DNA of 64,000 nt. It comes from Eledone cirrhosa (Eukaryota). The notes beneath the pieces were generated by a model that saw only the letters and a list, made by a program, of their open reading frames with translations, did not search any database and had not been told where the DNA came from. The stretch spans positions 99,448,001 to 99,512,000 of the forward strand of contig OZ024740.1 of assembly GCA_964016885.1 (NCBI GenBank). Reading direction: 5' to 3'. Below are positions 4,335 through 55,679 of this stretch, piece after piece (position 1 is the first letter of the stretch; every line of letters begins with the position of its first letter). The translations under genes were made by a program, and so were the position numbers.

Positions 4335-4769
4335 ATATATATACATACATATACACATACATGCACCTATACACACACACATGTATATATAAGTAAGTAA
4401 AAAACATAGATATAAAAAAGAGATATGAAAACACACATACACGCACATATGCGCACATACGAATGCGTTCGTATACACATACAGACACGCATACACCCTC
4501 ACACGCATAGATACAATATAATAACCAGCCGTATGAATAAATGAGTACAAATTATACATACATAAGGGCGGCTGAGAGACAACAGAATATATCTGAAGTT
4601 GAAAACGCAAGTGACATGTAATAACAGGTAGTGAAGGAAAAAGGAGAAGTAAAATGTGTGGAATTGTGAAGATATTAGGTAAGTGAATTAAAAAGCAGGG
4701 GGGGGGGGGGTCACTGGTGTATGTGAAGTAAAAATAAGGTTAAAAATAAAAATAAAAGTAAAAGTAGTT

Positions 4770-5380
4770 AAAACTAATGTAGGCAAACCATTCCTAGAGC
4801 TCTTAGATAAACATTTCCCTACAACACATAGATACTATAAGATCTTCAATAGAAACTGTGTCAAAATCAGCTACTCCTGCGGTCCCCCTATTAAATCTTA
4901 TATCCTCAATAAGAAAATACCCAGAGAACATCAAAATTGCTCCTGTAGAGTCAAAAGTGAATGCCTATTACAAGGTAAATGCAACACCAAAGCCATTGTG
5001 TATGCGGCTAAAGTGACAACCACCAGCAACAACCTACCAGCCACCAGCGAACGATATGTGGGTATGATACAAGACAAATTCAAAACGCGTTATTACTCAC
5101 ATGTCGCATCTTTCCGACATCCTGAAAAAAGATTTACAACAGCTCTGGCTAGCAGAATATGGGATTTGATATACCAAGGTATCCAATATAAATTGGATTG
5201 GTCAATTTTGGACCAATCTAAAGAATTTGCAAGGGGAACAAGAAGATGCACACTCTGCATAAGTGAAAAATATTGAATTTTACAGAACGTTAAATCACCA
5301 AAAACCTGCCTAAATGCAAAAACAGAAATTTTCACCAGTTTCCCACACATAAAATCACACTTGCTTTCCAGATCATATAA
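4770..5380 (+). pseudogene. Penelope RT-linker and GIY-YIG endonuclease fragment
   Basis: VYAAKV...YVGMIQDKFKTRYYSH...ALASRIWDL...WSIL...CTLCISEK, with stops and frameshifts. Confidence 0.88.
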
Positions 5381-8199: not shown

Positions 8200-11100
8200 T
8201 CAGTCATCACTCTCACTATCAGTATTACCTGAGTCAAGGTTTTCATAAACTCTTTCCGCGTCATTTTCACACTGTGTGGTGCACAGGCAAAGGTCGGTGC
8301 ACTGCAGATTCTTTGACTTGCAGGAACATCTTTGTGAGGAACAATCTCCCTTGTACTAGCATCTCACAATCTCAATGATGGCTTTAGGTGCTGGAGGATG
8401 ATCAGTAGTGGTTGGCTTTAGTTGGCCATCATCTCCCTTGTAGTAGCCATTCTGCATTGGATCCAGCGGAACTTGCTGGAGAGTGCTTGCCTGGCTCCAA
8501 ACTCGTGCTTGCACATGTACGCTTAAGATGTGCTGCTTGAGGGCACCAACTGTAGGTGGTAACTTGTCACTCTCTGACATGTATTTACAGAACAGGTACC
8601 ATCGCAACACTGGAATGCTTTTGATTTGGATTCCCTTTGGACAGACACAACTTTCCAAGCTGGTCAGAAGTTCTTCAGTCACTTCAGTATCATCGGACAG
8701 CTTTTTCAGAGCGTCAATGGTGTTATCGTCAAGAAAAATCTTGAACCATGTGGCCTTTCCTACTCTAGCAAACCTTCCCATATTATCGGCGCCGGAGAAG
8801 GCACGGAATACAGGTAAAGCCTTCGCCTTTGCTGGACTAGACCGTCCCAGAATGGCTAGATCTTTAGAACACTTGATGCCATGGAGATGGAGGTGTGCCT
8901 AGGTAACAAATCATAGTTGGCAATTACCAGAACCAGGACATCTGTGTCAGGTGAGAAAAATGTTAGTTGCATATCTCTTGGGTTTCGCCTTGTTGAAGAT
9001 ACTGCAAGGCATATCATCAGTGAGTCAGCTTCCTCATGGTTGTTTTCACTGAAAGGTTCCAAATCCTTGTTGCTCCTGGTTTGGCCAGATGCTGAAGTGA
9101 TGACAAGTTTGGAGGAATATTTGCTGTAGTACAGAGTCTTTTCTACCAAGTACTTGGTCAAATCAGCCTTCGTCTTTTTATGTGACAGGAATCTGCTCAT
9201 GGTTATGTGCTTGATGCTCGTCTCATCTCTGACTTGATACTGGACAGGATCCTTCCCTTGGCTTCTCTTCTGCCTGGTTGCATTCTTCAAGGAATCGGTC
9301 TTATGTGTGTCAAAAACGAGAATTATTTCGTCAAAGTTCTGCGTGAGGTTCATCAGTCTTCCACAGAAACTTTGGCTTAGATCTCTCACTGTAACCCTGA
9401 TAGCTAGTTTCTTAGTCAGCTTCTGAATAAGCACCATTCTATCTACCACCGCAACCCTCCTGTTGTGATTGAGATTGTCCTTTTCAGTGGCTTCATCTTG
9501 CAGTGAATCGCCTTGTGCTGTTTTCTCTGATGCTATCTGCTCAAGGAGATGAATGAGTTTGTACTTGTCAGTGCATGGCAACACTGACCCATTTGGGGCA
9601 AAGAGTGTGCTTGGCGTCAAGGTGAACTCATAATTGCTAATTGCTTCTTTCTGGTTCACGTCTCGGTCGGATCTGGCAAGAACCATAAGGCTGCCATACA
9701 AATCTTTGGTTTCCTTTATGTCAATGGTTTTGTCACGAACCTTTACAGCATGTCTCTTGTTGCCAGATGTGAACATCTCGTTGTTTTGTCTCTTCACTGG
9801 TGCCCAAAGGCTGACGCGCCCATTGATCCGTTCAGCAACATATTCCTCGTACAGCTTATGTCTAGTGTCATCCATCTCCAAGATCTGTGTTACAAACTCA
9901 TCTGGGATATATGCATGAGTTATCAAGTTGTAGAGTGTTTCCTCATCAGCAGCAAATGAATTGCCGTCAGTCAATATAGCACTCTTGATTTTGCTTACTG
10001 CTCCATGATCTCGCTTGATTGCAGCTGGAGATAGGTCATGATGCTCAAGGGCATAGCTTTCACCAACACCGAATTGGTTCTTAAACTCCTTTGCAAGGCA
10101 GGACATTTCAGGAGCTGCCATGAAGAAGCGTTGCCTTGCATTTGGATTATTGGAAATTCCAATGAGACCAGCTTGAACTTTCATGAATTTGTTAAGATGT
10201 TCACAGGCATGGTCACCTCCAATGGATACGAACGGGGTGGCATTCTTGGTGATGGATATATTGCCCTCTTCAAGTTCCCTCCATGTGTCGGGGTGATTGG
10301 TCTTCAATGCGTGCATATCTGCTATGTAGCGTGGCCAGAGTCTCTCATACGTTAAGCTGTCCATTGAGAATAACAGCTTGCTCAGTGCTTCTCCAGCTTC
10401 AAGATGAAGATTCAGATCAGCATTCCGCGATGCCGCTACAAAGTACAGAACTGTCTCTACCCGATGCATATAGTTCTACAATGATCTAAACATGGCATTT
10501 TTAGACTTCTCTGCTTCCCAGTCTTGCAGTTTCTTGATCACATCATACTCTGCTAAGACTTGCTGCAGATGAGCATTTGCATGCTTCACAGACTCAGCAT
10601 TGGTGCCTTTGTTCTGAACCGCCTCTTCTACTTGAATTGTTGCTTCTAGACACAGATCTTTCAGATGAGGATTGTCCTCTAGGAACTGCTCCAATGCCAG
10701 TTTATAAAGTGCCATGTAGGAGTAAATCTGTGCATGTAGCGAACGCTTGTAGTGTGTGCACTTGAGAATGTGTCTGGTTGTGGCAGAACGATACAGAACG
10801 GCTTCCATCCAGGCGTCGACTGTTCCCGAGTTTTCAATTGAATAGCCAAGAGCTCTCAACACAACCATGACAAAATGAAACTCACCAAGTCTTGGCAGCA
10901 CATTGCCCTTCAAATCTGGCCTAGCATCAACCAACTGTACTGCTTTCTCGTAGAGTGCCATATCGAAGGAAATGATAGTGAGGTACTTGTCAGCAACTTC
11001 CAGCTCTTTTAATTTGTTTGCTTGCATCATAACGTTTGGCAATGTTGGCCATTCATGCGCGACTTCTGGGAGCAAAGGTAGAGCTCCAACCTCAGTTAAG

Positions 11101-13007
11101 GGTAGGCTTGTCGACAAAATTGAGTTATAGCCTGCCCAGACTGGAATTCGACTCGAGTCTCCATCGTTCATTCGGGAAACAGCGTAGGCAATGAACCATT
11201 CCAGATGTGTGAGCTGGTAGGTACTATCCACACCTTCTTTGTCAATGGCAAACTGAATCATCCTCTTCTCGGATGGTGTCTTCTGCTTTGGCTTCTCACA
11301 AGGAACTATAGCTGTATAATATGGGGTCACAGAGAGACACTGTGCATCAGTGATATTTAGGGATGATGCAATTGGTTCTCCAGAGGCATCAGCTTTCTGG
11401 TATACGGCAGTGATAGTGCCATGGGTGGTCCCTTTACCATCTAGAGTGTCCTCAGTCAAATCCGCATTGTCTACTGCGAAAAAGACAAACGTGCCTTTCT
11501 TGAGGAATGGTGACACATACATCCCTTGAAACTGTTTGGTGTTCTCCACTACAGCATTGTCAACGGCTGTTTCCATCATTAGCATACGGCTGTATGAAAC
11601 ACAGTAATCTTGGGCGTTGAGGAGATTAACGAGCATCTTATTTCTTGTCTTTTGATGGATGCTCAGCGCCAATCCCACAACTTGGGGATTTTCTCTAACA
11701 TGCTGCGACTGAAAGCCAGCATGCTCAGTTTTGGGCCTGTATGTGATTTGTCTCTTAGACTTGAATCCAAACATCAGATTTTGACTCATTGTAAAGGCAG
11801 CTCTGTTCACATCATGTGTTCTAACTTCAGTCTCCAGTTCATTTGCAGGCCCTGCCATCATCCAGAGAATAAGTATATAGAGTTCCACAGGCACATCTTC
11901 TATTTTGTTGGAAACTGTGATTGAACTTTGTGGCAGTTGTCTTTTGGTAAAATGTTCAATGTTGTGGCGAACAAGCTGTGCTGACCTATATAGATTCTTC
12001 ATGTTGTCCGTGTCATCAGCAGTGATGGCATTTTAAACTCACAGGCTTCAGGGTAATACAACACAGCTGACTTTCGCCTATTGCTTTGCAGAACAGACCT
12101 TACACCTGGTAATTCTGTTAATATTTTGTCTTTCAGCCATTTTCTGATATAGACAGGTCTGTGATTTGGCAAAGCCTCTGCTCCACCTAGCATGTTCAAA
12201 TAGGTATTCTCGATATCTGCCATGGAAAGATATATGCCATCTGTAGTGTACACGTCGATAATGTTCACTAATTCAATGAAACTAGTTGTTTGCTATTGAC
12301 ACCCACTATCTTTCTTTGCTTTGTTTGCGATAGCTTCATCTCTCAGAACATGGAACACATTTATTGTCCAACACTGTTTATGAAATTTGATATCAACAGC
12401 GTGGGCATCTCCTTCCGAGATGCAAGATGCCATTCTTGTTTTTAGTTCTGGATTAGGAGAGATTTCCACAGCTTTTTTTAGAGCTTGGCCCACATTGGCA
12501 GTTCTTACTGCAAACAACTGTTGGTCACCAAAAGTTTGACAAAAAAAGCACAAACCATTTTCTAGTGGGCTTGTTGCTGACCGTGTAAACGGCCCTAAAT
12601 TTGCGTCAGAAGTTGATGGCTCGCTCCTGTCAAAGCTTGAAGGGCGTCCTCGCTTTTTGCGGATATGTGAACCAGTAGACAAAGACCGTTGGTGACGGTC
12701 TCTTGCACGTTGCCTTTTTTACTTTACTGGTGGCGATGGAGAAGCACGGGCGATGCCAAAAAGCCTTATTTCTCTGCAAAGTTTATGTTGTGCAGTCTTC
12801 TAGCCTCTTTTGAATTTTGACAAATTCGCCATCATGCAGTAATGCTCGCTCCTTCACTGCAGCTAACAAACTACGGTATGAATATAATTTTGGTTGTAAC
12901 ACAAACTGGCCTGCATCTTGTAGGCACAAAATACACCGTTTCCAGTCAATTGTTTCTTGTAGCTGTCTACCAAGTTGTGGTAACGTTGCTGTGGCCACGT
13001 TGTTCAT
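8200..13007 (-). pseudogene. Academ transposase (DDE + XPG/PIN-like nuclease + Cys8 zinc finger), disrupted
   Basis: Six consecutive ORF pieces. Motifs: FAVDNAD, ISFDMALY, RLGEFH, GGDHACEH; LVFD, HEEADS, SPDTDVLV, FSGADNMGRFARVGKATW; C-terminal RC*YKGDCSSQRCSCKSKNLQCTDLCLC. In-frame stops at 10476 and 8356 plus frameshifts. Confidence 0.85.
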
Positions 13008-20262: not shown

Positions 20263-21147
20263 CGAGAATGAAGAGAATATACAGGCATGAAAGGAATATA
20301 CAGGCTACTATATGAAGTAGTAATGGCATTCAGTTACAACAATAACAACAATTACAACAATGCTATTAATAAATTATTTGAGGAGACCCTGACATTACAT
20401 TAGGTGGGGGGTATAGTGTATCTAAGATTTCGGCGTGTAAAACTAGCTGACATAAAGCAGAAGTATAAGTCTGGCATGTACGGAGTGTCGTAGGGTGTAT
20501 TGTATCAATTTTAAAGATAAGCCGGTGTTTACAGTCTTTCTTTTCATCTTCAATAACATACATGAATGGGACAACACTGTCAAAGCTAATACAGAGGTTA
20601 AGGAGGTAATACATATACATATATACTGTGGGCGAGTTAATACAGAGGTTAAGGAGGTAATACATATACATATATATATATATATATATACATATACACA
20701 CACATATATATATACACACACGCATGTGTACATAGACACATACATACACATCAATATACACTCGTACAAAAATATACATACATGCAAAGAGATAAGCGTG
20801 CTGATTGTAATTATGGCAAAAGGAAGGTAAAGTTACATTGTAGTAGTGATTTGAGAAATACTTGGATTTAGGATCAAGTGATGGCAGCAGCTGAGAAGGA
20901 ATAAGTTTATGGGTTGATGAGGTACTTACAGACATTTGTGTGGTATAGACCTGTGAAGGCTAGAGTGTACTTAATGAGTATATTTCTGTGGTGATTTATG
21001 CAGGGTAGTGGGTATCATAGTTTAAAGCTGTGTTGTGTTGGTTCGGTTCAAGGAGATTTGAATCTTATGAATTTAGTGGCAATTCTATGCCTGCAGAAGA
21101 TAGATCTTTCTAACTTATTGTTAAGTAGCCTTTTTATATTTTTGAGG

Positions 21148-21435
21148 ACATACCTGTACAGGCACTCAATGAAAAACCGTGCACTTATGGGTTCCACAAC
21201 CCTCGCCAAAAAAATATGGGAACTGAAGGAAAGCAGCACTAACTACAGTATTAACTGGTCGAAGTTGTCGGCTGCTAAAACCTATAGTACAGGTATGTCC
21301 CACTGCGGGCTATGTGATCTAGAACTGATGTATATCCTCAAAAATGTAAAAAGGCTACTTAACAATAAGTTAGAAAAATCTATCTTCTGCAGGCATAGAA
21401 TTGCCACTAAATTCATAAGATTCAAATCTCCGTGA
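21148..21435 (+). pseudogene. GIY-YIG endonuclease C-terminal fragment (Penelope)
   Basis: Homologous to the 4998-5276 peptide (LAxxIWxL, WS.L, CxLCxxE). Confidence 0.85.
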
Positions 21436-24489: not shown

Positions 24490-26010
24490 GTAGAAGTAGT
24501 TCCACAACAGTTAATTCCCCATTTCCGAGAATAATGGTTTCACCTTAGTCGAAACATCAGCGTGGATTAAATGAGATTGTACGGAAAAGGACAGACAATC
24601 GTTCGAATTTCCATTGAATGGAGTAATCCATGCCTGTGTGCTTGAGGGACGGTTTTCATCACCCACCACCGATCTAACATGGGTTACATCTCCTTTGGGA
24701 AATGACTTCGTCTACACATAGGTATTCATGCAATTGTTTTTCCTTTTCCGTACAATTTCATTTATACCACACATTATCCAACTAAGGTGAAACAATTGTT
24801 CTCGGAAATGGCGAATTAACTGTTGCAAAACTACTTCTATATATGTATAATACAACTGGTTTTTCCACATTATACATATTGTTAGCACCCCAAACACTTA
24901 AATTGGGTTTATATTTTAAAATATAACCTAATGTTTGTTGAGTGAGATGGTTACCAGTCAGAGTTTAGCTTTAAACTATCTCTGTTGTTGTATTAAATAT
25001 TTACTCTTGAATGGTCAGAGGTGTTCATTTCCAGGTACCTTATGAATTTGACTTGCCGTATTTATTACTGTTCTGAAATATTGTGGCTTTTTTTGGTTGT
25101 AACTTCTCTGTTTTTTAGCCTAGGAATATATATATATATATATGCCTACGTATATAATTACATGCATATATGTGTTTATTTTCTTTTATTAATTGAGTTC
25201 TTTACACGAGGAATTAATATTGGTTTTGAAATAACTAATTAACCCGCGTGTGTTTTATATTTTACTCTTAATAATTCGGCCGGAGAATTATATTCCCATT
25301 TGCCCTTTATAGCATAACTTTCTGCATTTACTGCGGTTATGAGAAGCGGTTCTTATTCGGGTACAACTTCTGATTTAGCCTAAGAAAAAATCTATATGCG
25401 TGTGTAATTTATACAAGCATATATTTATTTTTTTATTTTCAATTGAGTTCTTAAACACGTTGGATTGATAATGTTTTCAAAAAAACTAATTAACCCGCGT
25501 GTATATTATTTTTTTTTCCTCATTTCGTGGGTTGTCTCCCCTTCCCGCTTCGTGTCGCTATGATACTTCCTCAGTCAAAAACTGCTGGAATTTCAAATTT
25601 GGCGGTCATTCGAGGTGAGAGAGACCAACTTTACGGACATGATTTTTGACAGCGGTAAGAAATTGTTTTCTTATATCAATGTTTAATGGGCTTCCACTGA
25701 TGATTTATAAGTGCCCACCTAAATATATTCTTACATGAATATATATTAGGCTTCTACATAAACTGGAAACATTCTCCCAAACTTGTAGAAAACTCATAAT
25801 GAAACAATTGTTTGGAAAGAGAGATATACTTTAACTTTAATTATATCACATAAAATAATACAACTGGTTTTTCCACATTATACATATTGTTAGCACCCCA
25901 AACACTTAAATTGGGTCTATATTTTAATATAACCTAATGTTTGTTGAGTGAGATGGTTACCAGTCAGAGTTTAGCTTTAAACTATCTCTGTTATTGTATT
26001 AAATATATAT
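24490..26010 (+). mobile_element. Non-coding HHR-bearing element with an inverted head and direct repeats (Penelope pLTR or retrozyme-like)
   Basis: Inverted repeat ~24490-24605 vs ~24728-24840; direct repeat of about 155 bp at ~24847-25000 and ~25856-26005; HHR just upstream of the second repeat. Confidence 0.6.
25692..25817 (+). ncRNA. Type I hammerhead ribozyme with branched stem II
   Basis: TTCCA-CTGATGA-tTTATaAGT...[two hairpins]...ACTcATAAt-GAAA-CAATTG-TT-TGGAA. Stem I TTCCA/TGGAA, GUU triplet. Confidence 0.72.
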
Positions 26011-26148
26011 ATATATATCATCATTATCATCATAATTTTACATCCGCTTTTCCCTGCTTGCAAGGGTTGGAAATGGCGAATTAACTATTGTGAAACTACT
26101 TCTATATATATATATATAATAAATGTAATCTGAGTTTTTCGAATATTA

Positions 26149-26342
26149 ATAATTGTTTCTACTTTTGGCACAAGGCTAGCAATTATCCCAGAGCATTACT
26201 GGTACTTTATTTTATCGACCCGTAAGGATGAAAGGCAAAGTTAACCTCGGCGGGATTTGAACTCAGAACGTAAAGGGCCATAACTATATGCTGTAAAGCA
26301 TGGTGTCTGACGCTCTACCGATACTGCTAATTCACCGCCCCT
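26149..26342 (-). mobile_element. SINE family A inserted in the left arm
   Basis: Full-length copy with TSD AATATTAATAA at 26142-26152 and 26343-26353. Confidence 0.92.
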
Positions 26343-26453
26343 AATATTAATAATAACATTCGATTTGTTTGCAATTTTGCAAACAAGCCTCAATTTTATA
26401 GCTATGTCAGTAGAATGAACACTTCATTTTGCTCTTGTGTTGGCATGTAAACA

Positions 26454-26503
26454 GAACTGCAGACACTAATGTTTCTGGGTATCACCCTTCATCAGTACAG
26501 CTC
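26454..26503 (-). ncRNA. Compact type I hammerhead ribozyme (intact core)
   Basis: Minus strand: GAGCTGTA-CTGATGA-aGGGT gat ACCCa-GAAA-CATTAGTG-TC-TGCAGTTC. 8-bp stem I (two G-U pairs), 4-bp stem II, short stem III, GUC triplet. Confidence 0.85.
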
Positions 26504-26832
26504 ACTGTTCACCTGCCACACTGTCAGAGCTAGTGAAAATATATGCTATTTTCAAAACTACACAGTGACTGATCGGCCTGATTTGTATGTTAGATGACTG
26601 GCTTATCAGTCAGGTCTGCATATTAGCAGACTGGCTTGTTTGCAAAATTGCAAACAAATCGAATGTTATTATTAATATTCGAAAAACTCAGATTACATTT
26701 ATTGTATTCAGCCATGTAGAACGAAATTTTCTTTTATATATATATATATATTTATTAAAATAACAGATTATATACTTATCGAGCCCTCTTTGGATTTTAG
26801 TTTTCAAATTTATTATTATTACTATATATATT

Positions 26833-27793: not shown

Positions 27794-28116
27794 TATATAT
27801 TATATATATAATATATATATATATATAATATATATATATATAGGTGTGCATGTATGTGTGTGTGGTGTGTGTTTCTGCTGCCTAAATAGAGAAATATCTG
27901 CATTGAATTTAAATTGCATACAATATGAGCTGGTATTTAAATAATATATTAATAAAGTCATTTCACTTCAACATTAACTAATTGGCATTCAACTTGTCTA
28001 TTAGGTCATCTAGACCTTGCAGATGTGTCAGGAGCAATTGTGGTCATCAATGAATATATGTAAAAGCATAAATTAAATCATGACAAGCGAAAATTATAAT
28101 GCTATATTATTTTTAC

Positions 28117-28303
28117 GGTGGATTGGCAGTGATGGTAGTGGGTCAGACGCCATGCTTTCCAGCATAGTTACGTCCCTTTACGATCTGAGTTCAAATCCCG
28201 TCGAGGTTGACTTTGCCTTTCATCCTTACGGGGTTGATAAAATAAAGTACCAGTAATGCACTGGTTAATTTGCTGGCCTTGTGCCTAAAGTAGAAACAAT
28301 TAT
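28117..28303 (+). mobile_element. SINE family A
   Basis: GGTGGATTGGCAGT...GAGTTCAAATCCC...AGAAACAATTATT. Confidence 0.9.
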
Positions 28304-29746
28304 TTTTACCTTTATCTTAAGACAAATGTGTCACAATAAACTAGTTTAATCAAGTTATGCCAAGCAGTTCTCAGTCTCTCTCTCTCTAAATATATATATA
28401 TTGTATGTACATGTGCAAAGTGTGGGTCTCTCGCTTGCTCTCTCTCTCTATATATATATGTATGTATTTATATATTTATCGAGCCCTCTTTGGATTTTAG
28501 TCTTCAAATTTATTAGTATTACTATTATTATTATTATTATTATTATATACATATATATATATACCTTGTAGTGATAATTTCTATCTAACGTCCATTTTTC
28601 ATGTTTACATGGATAAGAGAGAGGTTTTCCCAGTGAAGCAATGATCACTGAAGCATGGTTAATTTTATGGTTCAGGCATCCTATAGATCTTGACAAGCAA
28701 CTCAATGATGCGTTAACCGTAACTAAAGCTTAAGATATAAACAAATAAATGATAAATGAAATGTTTACCACTATTCATTTTGAAATTATTACTATGGATA
28801 TATATAGCGATATAACATTCCCACTAATTCCCCTATGGATAAATAATCGGTAGAAATAATGGGTAAATTATTGATAAATTTAAAGAAATAGCGTATCCCA
28901 TTAATAGTTTTCAACTGTGCGGGCAAAAGAGGAGTGAAGTGGCAGAATTGATTGAGCTTTTGAGTAAATGCATTGAAATATTAATTTTTAGCTTTCTTTC
29001 TCTTTCTCTCCATCCCCTCTCTCTCTATATATATACACACACACATTGAAGTCCAAATTCCATCACTGTTGACTTTATCTTTCATCTTAAGGGTCAATAA
29101 AGTAAGTAGTAGAGATATAAGGAAATCTATTCAATAGTTTATATCTTTTAAAAGGAAATTGGGATTTTACCTTTGAAAGAATTATTATTAATATAATTTT
29201 ACTTTGCTTTCCATATCTATCCATGAAGGAATAAAACTTATTTTCTTTTTCTTTGTGTTATTCCTTTTATGGAAAAAGACAAAGCGTGATAACATGGATA
29301 AGTAGAGAAGAGAGAAAAAAAATGACAGAGTAGCGGGAGAAAGCATGGGGAAAGAGAAAATAAATATGTATGGGGTGGTAAGTAGTATTACAAATAGATA
29401 GTATTAAAGAGCTAGCACTGTTTACAAACCAATAAGTAGCAGCACATCATCAAAGCCTCATGTTTTGTCTGGGATTTGGACTCTGCTGTAGTATAGGCAC
29501 AGAGATGTTGTTTCAAAGCTTTCTTCAAAACCCCATTGTCTTAGGTCCTGCATAGAACTTAATGTATTTTCATCTATAGTTTGGGGAAACCAATGCCTTG
29601 AAATGAATTTGGTAGACAGGAACTGTATGAAGCCCATATATATATAGAGAGAGAGTGTGTATTTGCATGTGTGTGTACATATGCCAGTCACTGCATGTAT
29701 CATATCAATACCATTTATAAAGCCTGCACTGTCAGTTATTAATATT

Positions 29747-54506: not shown

Positions 54507-55445
54507 TCAGAAATGACTGGATTTCCTGGATTTGCGGTTGTAGTCCAGGTCGCATCCCCGAACTAGCCCCCAGATATAGTCCCCCATCATTTTTTCATTG
54601 TAGTGGCCCTGGTACCTCCGCTCTATCTCTTTCAAATCTTGGTGGAATCGTTCGCCTTGTTCTTCTGAGTAGGCGCCCATATTGTCCTTGACATTTTCCA
54701 GGTGAGCGTCCAGGATATGGAGTTTAAGCGACATTCTGCATCCCATGGCGCCAAAAGCCTTTATCAGATATTGCACCAGCTGCTGGTAGTTTTCAGCTCT
54801 ATAGTTGCCCAGGAAGCCCTTAACAACTGCCTTGAAACAGTTCCATACTGTTCTCTCAATCCTATTGAGCTTATTGGAGAACTCGGTAGACTCAAACACC
54901 TTCTTTATCTGAGGTCCAACAAAAATTCCACCTTTTATTTTGGCCTTAGATAACTTGGGGAAGAACTCAAGAAGGTACTTAAAAGCGGATGATTCTTGGT
55001 TGAGAGCCTTCACAAACTGCTTCATCAACCCCAATTTAATGTGCAGTGGCGGCTTGAGCACAATCCTGGGATCAACCTGTGGCTCCCACATGACGTTCCG
55101 GATTCCAACTACAAATTCTGTTCGCTGCTCCCAGTTCTTTCTTTTGTAGTGGTCAGAGGTGGCTCTGCTGTCCCAAAGGCAGAGGAAGCATTGGAATTTG
55201 ATAAAGCCTCCTTGGAGTCCAAGCAGGAAAGCCACCATTTTGAAGTCTCCAATGATTTCCCAATTGTACTGGTTGTATTGCAGAGCTTCCAAGAAGACTT
55301 TCACACTGCAGTAATCTTCCTTCAGGCAGACTGAATGAGCTAGGGGCAGTGTCAGGCACTTGTTTCCATTGTGGAGGAGGACAGCCTTCAAACTTGTGGT
55401 GGAGCTGTCTATAAATAGCCACCACTCCTTGGGCATAAACGGCAC
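54507..55445 (-). CDS. Chapaev3-like DDE transposase catalytic region (N-terminally truncated)
   Basis: 312-aa open frame: LFIDSS, GDFKM, CFLCLWDSR, PPLHIKLGLMK, KLHILDAH, SEEQGERFHQD. The family assignment is from recalled motifs. Confidence 0.78.
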   Translation of the reverse strand: MPFMPKEWWLFIDSSTTSLKAVLLHNGNKCLTLPLAHSVCLKEDYCSVKVFLEALQYNQYNWEIIGDFKMVAFLLGLQGGFIKFQCFLCLWDSRATSDHYKRKNWEQRTEFVVGIRNVMWEPQVDPRIVLKPPLHIKLGLMKQFVKALNQESSAFKYLLEFFPKLSKAKIKGGIFVGPQIKKVFESTEFSNKLNRIERTVWNCFKAVVKGFLGNYRAENYQQLVQYLIKAFGAMGCRMSLKLHILDAHLENVKDNMGAYSEEQGERFHQDLKEIERRYQGHYNEKMMGDYIWGLVRGCDLDYNRKSRKSSHF

Positions 55446-55679
55446 CCAATAACGTCAAACAGTCCAGGCATGTCATGGCAGAAGCACAGGCCATACCTAA
55501 GAGTGTAAAAGCCTGAGAAAGGTTCATGTCGACTTCTCTGACGTGTCACCTTCACTTCCTCCTTGACCAAGTTCCACTGCTTCATCCTGGAGACGAATGC
55601 TTAAAACACAACTTACCTTTTATTCAGGGTGCGAAAATCCAGTATCAATAAATCCACTTTTTAACAATTTTATACTTTA

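What the first reader, a model, noticed from the sequence alone, without database searches (positions are those of the whole stretch)
26118..26735. MITE-shaped mini-element with perfect inverted arms enclosing an intact hammerhead ribozyme
Removing the SINE leaves about 390 bp with 71-bp perfect inverted arms, each containing its own palindrome TTGTTTGCAA(TT/AA)TTGCAAACAA. Inside are the best-formed HHR in the window (8-bp stem I, GUC site) and short GACTGGCTT repeats. No coding remnant is visible. It could be an extremely truncated Penelope inversion product or a distinct non-autonomous ribozyme-bearing family. The arms remain identical despite a later SINE insertion, so both events appear recent.
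Basis: partly seen in the sequence, partly recalled or inferred. Interest (0 to 1): 0.75.

Follow-up and report, generated by a model that had tools for sequence, protein, structure and literature searches.

The report
Penelope-pasted hammerhead retrozyme, not a MITE
This is a truncated, folded-back copy of an abundant 438-base non-coding repeat that carries a predicted self-cutting hammerhead RNA and was likely pasted in by a Penelope-type retrotransposon enzyme, a known kind of animal element; across its copies the ends pile up at the predicted cut site, which may mean the ribozyme cuts in living cells.

Summary
In detail: 71-nt identical inverted arms, a SINE with a 12-nt duplication, and a type I hammerhead with GUC at 26464-26462. 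The MITE reading fails. The element is a 5'-truncated, inverted piece of a 438-bp non-coding tandem monomer (1,876 first-look candidates in the own genome). The family's inversion points all differ, it inserts in (TA)n, and it carries a 32-36-nt 'tail' on exactly one end in 45 of 48 two-ended copies. That is the published Penelope-like (PLE) insertion signature. The hammerhead fold is backed by compensatory changes across three sister families (8 of 16 pairs). So it is a new non-LTR retrozyme (mini-PLE) family, a known kind; the scan noted this class before on other DNA. No autonomous partner was found. One extra result: 5' ends of copies pile up just 3' of the predicted cut (22 ends in monomer 135-144, 6 of them exactly at 144, against 2 in 148-157), also in a sample drawn after the prediction (8 against 0). 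This was not repeated in two sister families, and there are no RNA data.

The parts
26102..26117 (.). (TA)n target tract, left flank
   Evidence: sequence; most outer ends of family copies abut (TA)n
26118..26153 (-). outer end 'A': monomer 1-36, the 3' terminus of the hammerhead strand, without tail
26154..26342 (-). tRNA-like SINE (family type recalled), inserted in the ATTATT loop of the terminal hairpin; 12-nt duplication at 26142-26153 and 26343-26354
26343..26630 (-). main segment, monomer 25-313 (5'-truncated at 313), 94% identical to the monomer of L022
26365..26386 (.). palindromic hairpin of the 3'-terminal region; related hairpins in sister families F2 and F3
26441..26517 (-). type I hammerhead: stem I 7+8(+4) bp with bulge, CUGAUGA, stem II 4 bp flanked by an A/A mismatch, GAAA, self-complementary helix III, GUC at 26464-26462; predicted cut between 26462 and 26461 (monomer 145|144)
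26568..26630 (.). internal ~33-nt degenerate repeats; the octamer motif found in all three families is broken here by one change (26581-26588)
26631..26632 (.). head-to-head inversion junction (monomer 313 joined to 71)
26633..26703 (+). inverted 5'-truncated copy, monomer 71 to 1 (the 'right arm')
26704..26739 (+). outer end 'B': PLE-type tail, monomer 438-403 (32 nt unambiguous, up to 36 because the last 4 merge with the TA tract)
26736..26751 (.). (TA)n target tract, right flank

Best explanation
The element is a 5'-truncated, head-to-head inverted copy of a 438-bp non-coding tandem repeat with a predicted type I hammerhead (a non-LTR retrozyme or mini-Penelope), likely inserted into a TA tract by a Penelope-like reverse transcriptase/GIY-YIG enzyme borrowed in trans, and later hit by a SINE. 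Shown: monomer, tandem copies, variable inversion points, two fixed outer ends about 36 nt apart, one tail per insertion, TA targets, a covarying hammerhead fold. Inferred mechanism: tandem source copies are transcribed on the hammerhead strand. The PLE enzyme nicks both strands of a TA tract, and each nick primes a cDNA, one from start site A (monomer 1) and one from start site B (monomer ~403, a tail's length further 3'). Both cDNAs stop early and are joined head to head, mostly through short microhomology. The stretch copied twice (here 1-71) looks like terminal inverted repeats. In this copy the long cDNA ran through an uncut hammerhead and stopped at 313. In a sizeable share of other copies the cDNA ends at or just short of the predicted cut, which suggests that some template RNAs had been cut by the ribozyme. 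This single copy is probably inert: it has one hammerhead, a broken octamer and a competing misfold.
For: Family: 1,876 first-look candidates (40 scored, 127 matches). Head-to-tail copies 438-442 nt apart. 47 inversion junctions, variable. Of 62 junctions, 43 overlap by 1 nt or more, 8 are blunt and 11 have added bases (BLAST edges, approximate). One tail in 46 of 48 classifiable two-ended clusters (45 of 48 after splitting L009 by eye); 19 more of the 67 clusters had an unclassifiable end. Sister family F2 also has two fixed outer ends (277 and 333). Contigs of a public run leave the monomer into (TA)n at positions 2 and 403 (52 and 31 contigs). Hammerhead core bases are kept in 62-65 of 65 full copies; 8 of 16 pairs change on both sides across three families, 94.8% of cells paired against 31-47% for slid controls. 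Helix III is self-complementary in all three families with three different sequences. Arms of one locus share a minor allele in 60 of 67 pairs against about 53% expected. 5' ends: 22 in 135-144 against 2 in 148-157 among 166 ends from 91 loci. Literature: inverted truncated copy, a 30-40-bp tail at one end and TA bias in PLEs (PMC8557442, passages; PMC3846280, passages); two RT start sites bounding the tail and cutting of both strands (PMC11167929, parts 1-2 of 4).
Against: No autonomous PLE sharing these termini was found: 50 loci of the two abundant PLE families seen in the window show no terminal similarity, and PLE ORF pieces beside retrozyme copies lie in no consistent arrangement. Cleavage is not shown. 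The monomer's minimum-energy fold pairs the catalytic core with loop III (-32.1 against -25.9 kcal/mol for the active fold; the double-hammerhead estimate of -58.2 is still above two misfolds at -64.2). The core has an extra base before G12, and Rfam does not score it. The pile-up at the cut site was not seen in F2 (1 of 29 ends in the last 10 nt) or F3 (1 of 24). All samples are top hits, not random copies. Mean arm identity within loci (92.0%) is no higher than between loci (92.6%).
Confidence: 0.9

Rival explanations
1. It is the pseudo-LTR stump of an autonomous Penelope-like element whose ORF-bearing copies were not sampled.
For: The anatomy is identical to PLE ends (PMC8557442, PMC3846280 passages). 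Only 40 candidates are scored per DNA search, so rare ORF-bearing copies can be missed.
Against: The unit closes on itself: position 438 runs into position 1 of the next unit with no ORF between, in many loci, and the tail is the unit's own sequence. No truncation point continues into a shared unknown sequence among 26 examined. F2 forms arrays up to about 3.7 units without an ORF (L116).
Confidence: 0.07
2. It is a MITE (class II, cut-and-paste) that captured a hammerhead between terminal inverted repeats.
For: 71-nt perfect inverted arms, TA flanks, small size, no ORF.
Against: The right end runs 32-36 nt past the arm in family sequence. The inverted partner's length differs from copy to copy. 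Many copies have no inversion, and head-to-tail tandems exist. Copies are truncated from one side.
Confidence: 0.02
3. For the pile-up of 5' ends only: the reverse transcriptase stalls in the long stem I of this family's hammerhead rather than running off a cut RNA end.
For: 14 ends also fall in 125-134, where the enzyme enters the stem. F1 has the longest stem I, and F2 and F3 with shorter stems show no pile-up. In vitro, a PLE enzyme used mainly uncut RNA, and no RNA-seq ends were seen at the cut site (PMC11167929, parts 1-2).
Against: Counts rise through the stem to a mode at exactly 144 (6 independent junctions) and then drop. The three ends at 145-147 all have junction overlap. The strongest edge anywhere in 60-400 is at 145-148. 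In the predicted misfold the helix continues past 144, so 144 is not a structural edge there.
Confidence: 0.3

Closest known systems
Metazoan non-LTR retrozymes (Cervera and de la Pena 2020, PMC7229834; read parts 2 and 4 of 6 and passages; supplement not opened)
   Same: 150-450-bp non-coding tandem units with a type I hammerhead and GC under 50% (here 438 bp, 38% GC); PLEs proposed as the mobilisers; an axolotl variant also has a mismatch at the base of helix II.
   Different: Here copies are dispersed and short (longest continuous run 714 nt), inverted and tailed; 'inverted' has 0 hits in that paper's main text. Circular RNA and cleavage are shown there, not here.
Retrozymes as non-autonomous PLE derivatives (Li, Clavereau, Pollet 2026, bioRxiv 10.64898/2026.07.22.740005; read parts 1-3 of 5; supplements closed)
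   Same: Same conclusion on origin and mobilisation; only 1 of 9 tested dimers cleaved in vitro, so activity cannot be assumed.
   Different: Their evidence is co-occurrence and pLTR homology in vertebrates. Mine is the insertion footprint (one-sided tail, inversion, TA target), and I found no homologous autonomous element.
EN+ Penelope-like elements: inverted pLTR plus tail (PMC8557442 passages; PMC3846280 passages; PMC11167929 parts 1-2 of 4; PMC4209133 passages)
   Same: Partial tandems, inverted 5'-truncated copy, 30-40-bp tail at one end, TA targets, hammerhead with a base between positions 9 and 10.1 and a palindromic helix III.
   Different: No RT/GIY-YIG ORF; long canonical-type stems I and II rather than a minimal hammerhead; an extra base between 11.1 and G12.
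MITEs (general knowledge, recalled)
   Same: Small, non-coding, inverted repeats near the ends, TA context.
   Different: Ends are not symmetric, size and junction are not fixed, tandems and one-sided truncation exist.

Membership tests
non-LTR retrozyme | tandem units of 150-450 bp | tested here: met
   438-442-nt head-to-tail units in L020 and L022-L026; this copy itself is a partial unit
non-LTR retrozyme | type I hammerhead in each unit | tested here: met
   65 full copies with conserved core; covariation across three families; non-standard extra base; not scored by Rfam
non-LTR retrozyme | non-coding, GC under 50% | tested here: met
   no ORF of 120 aa or more over the element; 38% GC
non-LTR retrozyme | self-cleavage of the transcript | tested here: inconclusive
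   indirect only: 5' ends pile up at the predicted cut; misfold predicted; not repeated in F2 and F3
non-LTR retrozyme | expressed as linear and circular RNA | not testable with these tools
   needs RNA data or a northern blot
Penelope-like element (autonomous, EN+) | RT plus GIY-YIG ORF | tested here: not met
Penelope-like element (insertion signature) | inverted 5'-truncated copy with variable junction | tested here: met
   47 junctions; 62 junctions
Penelope-like element (insertion signature) | 30-40-bp tail at one end | tested here: met
   32-36 nt; 45 of 48 two-ended copies (one cluster split by eye)
Penelope-like element (insertion signature) | microsatellite (TA)n target | tested here: met
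Penelope-like element (insertion signature) | termini shared with an autonomous PLE | tested here: inconclusive
   none in 50 loci of two PLE families; other PLE families not sampled
MITE | terminal inverted repeats form both ends | tested here: not met
   tail beyond the right arm
MITE | uniform size and structure across copies | tested here: not met
MITE | fixed target-site duplication | tested here: inconclusive
   both flanks are (TA)n, so no duplication can be read

The most novel reading that the evidence does not exclude
The genome records the ribozyme's activity and the template's form. About a fifth to a third of this family's cDNAs that reach the hammerhead end at or just short of its cut site, including cDNAs that first read through one intact hammerhead. 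So insertions are copied from partly self-cleaved linear multimers (or by jumps between cut monomers), not only by rolling round a circle, and each insertion uses the two Penelope start sites once each. Truncation maps could then serve as an in-genome assay of which hammerheads cut in vivo. My searches found no paper that reports this.
Probability: 0.55. Interest if true: 0.62.

Novelty: new member of a known kind. Interest (0 to 1): 0.4.

Why it matters
The element itself is one more retrozyme family. I found no description of it in a cephalopod (host likely an octopus, inferred from the SINE type and earlier scan notes, not from a call that names it). Such copies will be mis-annotated as MITEs by inverted-repeat finders. 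The family data bear on two open points. The near-strict one-tail rule (45 of 48) fits two cDNAs primed from the two start sites found in vitro for a Penelope enzyme. The edge of 5' ends at the predicted cut is indirect evidence that a hammerhead cuts the transposition template in vivo, which the in vitro Penelope study did not see.

Tried and rejected
Rfam at gathering and at E up to 10: no hammerhead family hit. ARAGORN: no tRNA gene in the window. Autonomous partner: the two PLE endonuclease fragments of the window (4692-5276, 20995-21435) belong to very large families (61,162 and 51,280 candidates); 30 + 20 loci show no shared terminus, and the hammerhead model finds nothing at their 3' ends except a nested F2 copy. 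A genome search with the model returned only F3-like copies among its 30 loci. A search with a Naiad-like ORF and one with a PLE protein family gave no result; its 3' end, read by eye, does not resemble the monomer. Public runs: no RNA holder listed. Laying DNA-type contigs over the cut site gave no usable test of the pile-up. Idea that the SINE specifically targets the retrozyme: rejected, only 1 of its 30 best loci (the window's own) lies in the family, and most others also end in ATTAT. Idea that a SINE-carrying composite was amplified as a unit: rejected, because the 3' nick is shared but 5' ends and duplication lengths differ. Cut-site pile-up in sister families: not seen; an earlier look at F2 gave 4 ends in the 10 nt before the cut and none in the next 28, too few to count. 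The F2 part used a wrongly cut monomer and was redone. The paper on the newt satellite-2 promoter is not held, so that link is recalled only.

Full report
Observation. All sequence features are real. The left arm (26118-26153 plus 26355-26389) equals the reverse complement of 26633-26703 at 71 of 71 nt. A SINE fills 26154-26342 with a 12-nt duplication. The minus strand has CUGAUGA at 26495, GAAAC at 26475 and GUC at 26464-26462. Rfam scores nothing here. The arms are not the element's ends: 26704-26735 (to 26739 with the TA ambiguity) is also family sequence.

The family. The SINE-free stretch has 1,876 first-look candidates in the 3.0-Gb own genome, of which 40 were scored; a query across the unit junction has 2,714. 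Several loci hold the arm twice in the same direction, 438-442 nt apart, which defines a 438-bp monomer of 38% GC. On that monomer the window reads: 1-36, SINE, 25-313, then inverted 71 to 1 and 438 to 403. The hammerhead strand runs from high to low monomer numbers, so both outer ends are 3' ends of that strand and the inversion joint is where two 5'-truncated copies meet. No ORF of 120 aa overlaps the element, and PLE ORF pieces near other copies lie in no consistent position or direction.

Not a MITE. One search lists 47 inversion junctions in 58 loci; apart from two duplicated loci they all differ, and none repeats the window's. Many copies have no inversion or run through the unit junction, up to 714 nt. 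Outer ends fall at two fixed places, monomer ~1 (A) and ~403 (B), mostly against (TA)n; contigs of a public run leave the monomer into TA at the same two places (52 and 31 contigs; the run may be the assembly's own sample). In 91 distinct loci (120 fetched, 29 dropped as the same place or a duplicated segment), 67 clusters have outward-facing ends. In 48 both ends can be classed, and 46 have one A and one B; by eye L009 is an A/A insertion plus a separate piece, giving 45 of 48, against half if ends were chosen independently. Of 62 junctions, 43 overlap by at least one base, 8 are blunt and 11 have added bases (BLAST edges). An inverted truncated copy, a 30-40-bp tail on one end and TA targets are the published marks of Penelope-like insertions (PMC8557442, passages; PMC3846280, passages). 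In vitro, a Penelope enzyme cuts both strands of AT-rich DNA and starts at two sites that bound the tail (PMC11167929, parts 1-2 of 4).

The hammerhead. In 65 full copies the core bases are kept in 62-65, and the window matches the majority there. Two sister families turned up beside other loci: F2 (~427-bp unit, 61% identical) and F3. Both are non-coding, tandem and inverted. On 16 sequences of the three families (12 distinct), 8 of 16 pairs change on both sides and 94.8% of cells pair, against 31-47% for slid controls (three families are few independent events, and the structure was drawn from these sequences). All have an unpaired base on each side of stem II's base (A/A or U/U). A base between 9 and 10.1 and a palindromic helix III are described for PLE hammerheads (PMC4209133, passages); a mismatch at the base of helix II is described in an axolotl retrozyme. 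Helix III is fully self-complementary in all three families with different sequences (10 of 10, 6 of 6, 6 of 6), which fits a double hammerhead in tandem transcripts. Against activity: the predicted best fold pairs the core with loop III (-32.1 against -25.9 kcal/mol), and only 1 of 9 retrozyme dimers cleaved in a recent test.

A footprint at the cut site. The predicted 3' product starts at monomer 144 (window 26461). In one search I noticed 5' ends near there, wrote the prediction down, and drew new loci with queries that stop at 122-127. Of 37 new segments (23 of 60 loci dropped as already held), 14 end in 127-144, none in 145-163; 8 against 0 for 135-144 versus 148-157. Pooled, 166 inner ends (SINE site excluded) give 22 in 135-144, 3 in 145-147 (each with junction overlap) and 2 in 148-157; six independent junctions sit exactly at 144, and the strongest edge between 60 and 400 is at 145-148. 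The same test on fresh F2 and F3 loci showed no pile-up (1 of 29 and 1 of 24 in the last 10 nt). F1 differs from them in having GUC and a 3-bp helix III, which could make it the better cutter, but also in having the longest stem I, so stalling remains a rival. I put cleavage at about 0.7 for this pattern.

Mechanism. Shown: unit, tandems, ends, tail rule, junctions, fold. Inferred: transcription from tandem source copies (an octamer motif lies 111-120 nt upstream of the cut in all three families; that newt satellite 2 uses such a promoter is recalled), binding by a PLE protein in trans, priming on both nicked strands from starts A and B, early stops and microhomology joining. Arms of one locus share a minor allele in 60 of 67 pairs, about 53% expected, so both cDNAs come from the same source. 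Untested: circular RNA, cleavage, the partner's identity. Fifty loci of the two abundant PLE families seen in the window share no terminus with the monomer.

Age and the SINE. Identical arms are rare in the family (0 of 38 inverted pairs), but the interior carries 7 private differences and the SINE's nearest relatives are 97% identical. The copy is on the young side, not necessarily very recent. The SINE's position is no coincidence: 12 insertions in 11 of 58 loci share this 3' nick with different 5' ends. The SINE prefers ATTAT(T) throughout the genome, and the arm offers that motif in a hairpin loop.

Verdict. A new family of a known kind: a non-LTR retrozyme (PMC7229834; bioRxiv 10.64898/2026.07.22.740005) with a Penelope-type insertion footprint. 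Searches for a cephalopod description found none. The scan has noted the same class on other DNA; those notes came after my reading was formed and are not support. Interest 0.4, carried mostly by the one-tail rule and the possible cleavage footprint.

Noticed in passing
L001, L009, L015, L017 (twice), L028, L030, L032, L033, L042, L049, L053; window 26153|26154: The same SINE family inserted independently 12 times at one nick in the ATTATT loop of the retrozyme's terminal hairpin; F3 copies often carry it at the matching loop too.
   Followed up: yes
L073:1075-1400 and L091-L120, L291-L320: Sister retrozyme family F2: ~427-bp unit, GUA site, U/U at the base of stem II, two fixed outer ends 56 nt apart (longer than the usual 30-40-nt tail), arrays up to about 3.7 units.
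   Followed up: partly
L029:1870-2130 and L171-L230, L321-L350: Sister family F3: unit of about 370-420 bp with a variable TA/TG stretch, GUU site, 2,547 first-look candidates.
   Followed up: partly
monomer 264-271 (window 26581-26588, broken); F2 233; F3 235: An octamer motif (ATGCAAAT on the hammerhead strand) lies 111-120 nt upstream of the cut in all three families and is slightly better kept than its flanks (0.97 against 0.90-0.94), with an AT-rich hairpin between it and the ribozyme; candidate snRNA-type promoter.
   Followed up: partly
L157:453-527 (minus strand): A fourth, divergent hammerhead of the same layout (U/U at the base of stem II, GUC; E 0.023 with my model) in an unclassified repeat, with a minimal hammerhead about 280 nt downstream.
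   Followed up: no
window 4692-5276 (+) and 20995-21435 (+): 3' fragments of two very abundant Penelope-like families (61,162 and 51,280 candidates) with a cysteine-rich motif before the endonuclease and no canonical hammerhead seen in the 3' regions read.
   Followed up: partly
window 8356-12718 (-) and 54507-55454 (-): Long open frames (539, 518 and 315 aa) that look like DNA-transposon proteins by recall; no Pfam hit at E 0.01.
   Followed up: no
window 24505-24825: Another small fold-back element with nested inverted arms (45 and 47 nt); its arm recurs at 26069-26114 just left of this finding (I5, I7, D12).
   Followed up: no
window 28116-28304: A second copy of the same SINE in the opposite orientation, about 1.8 kb away.
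   Followed up: partly
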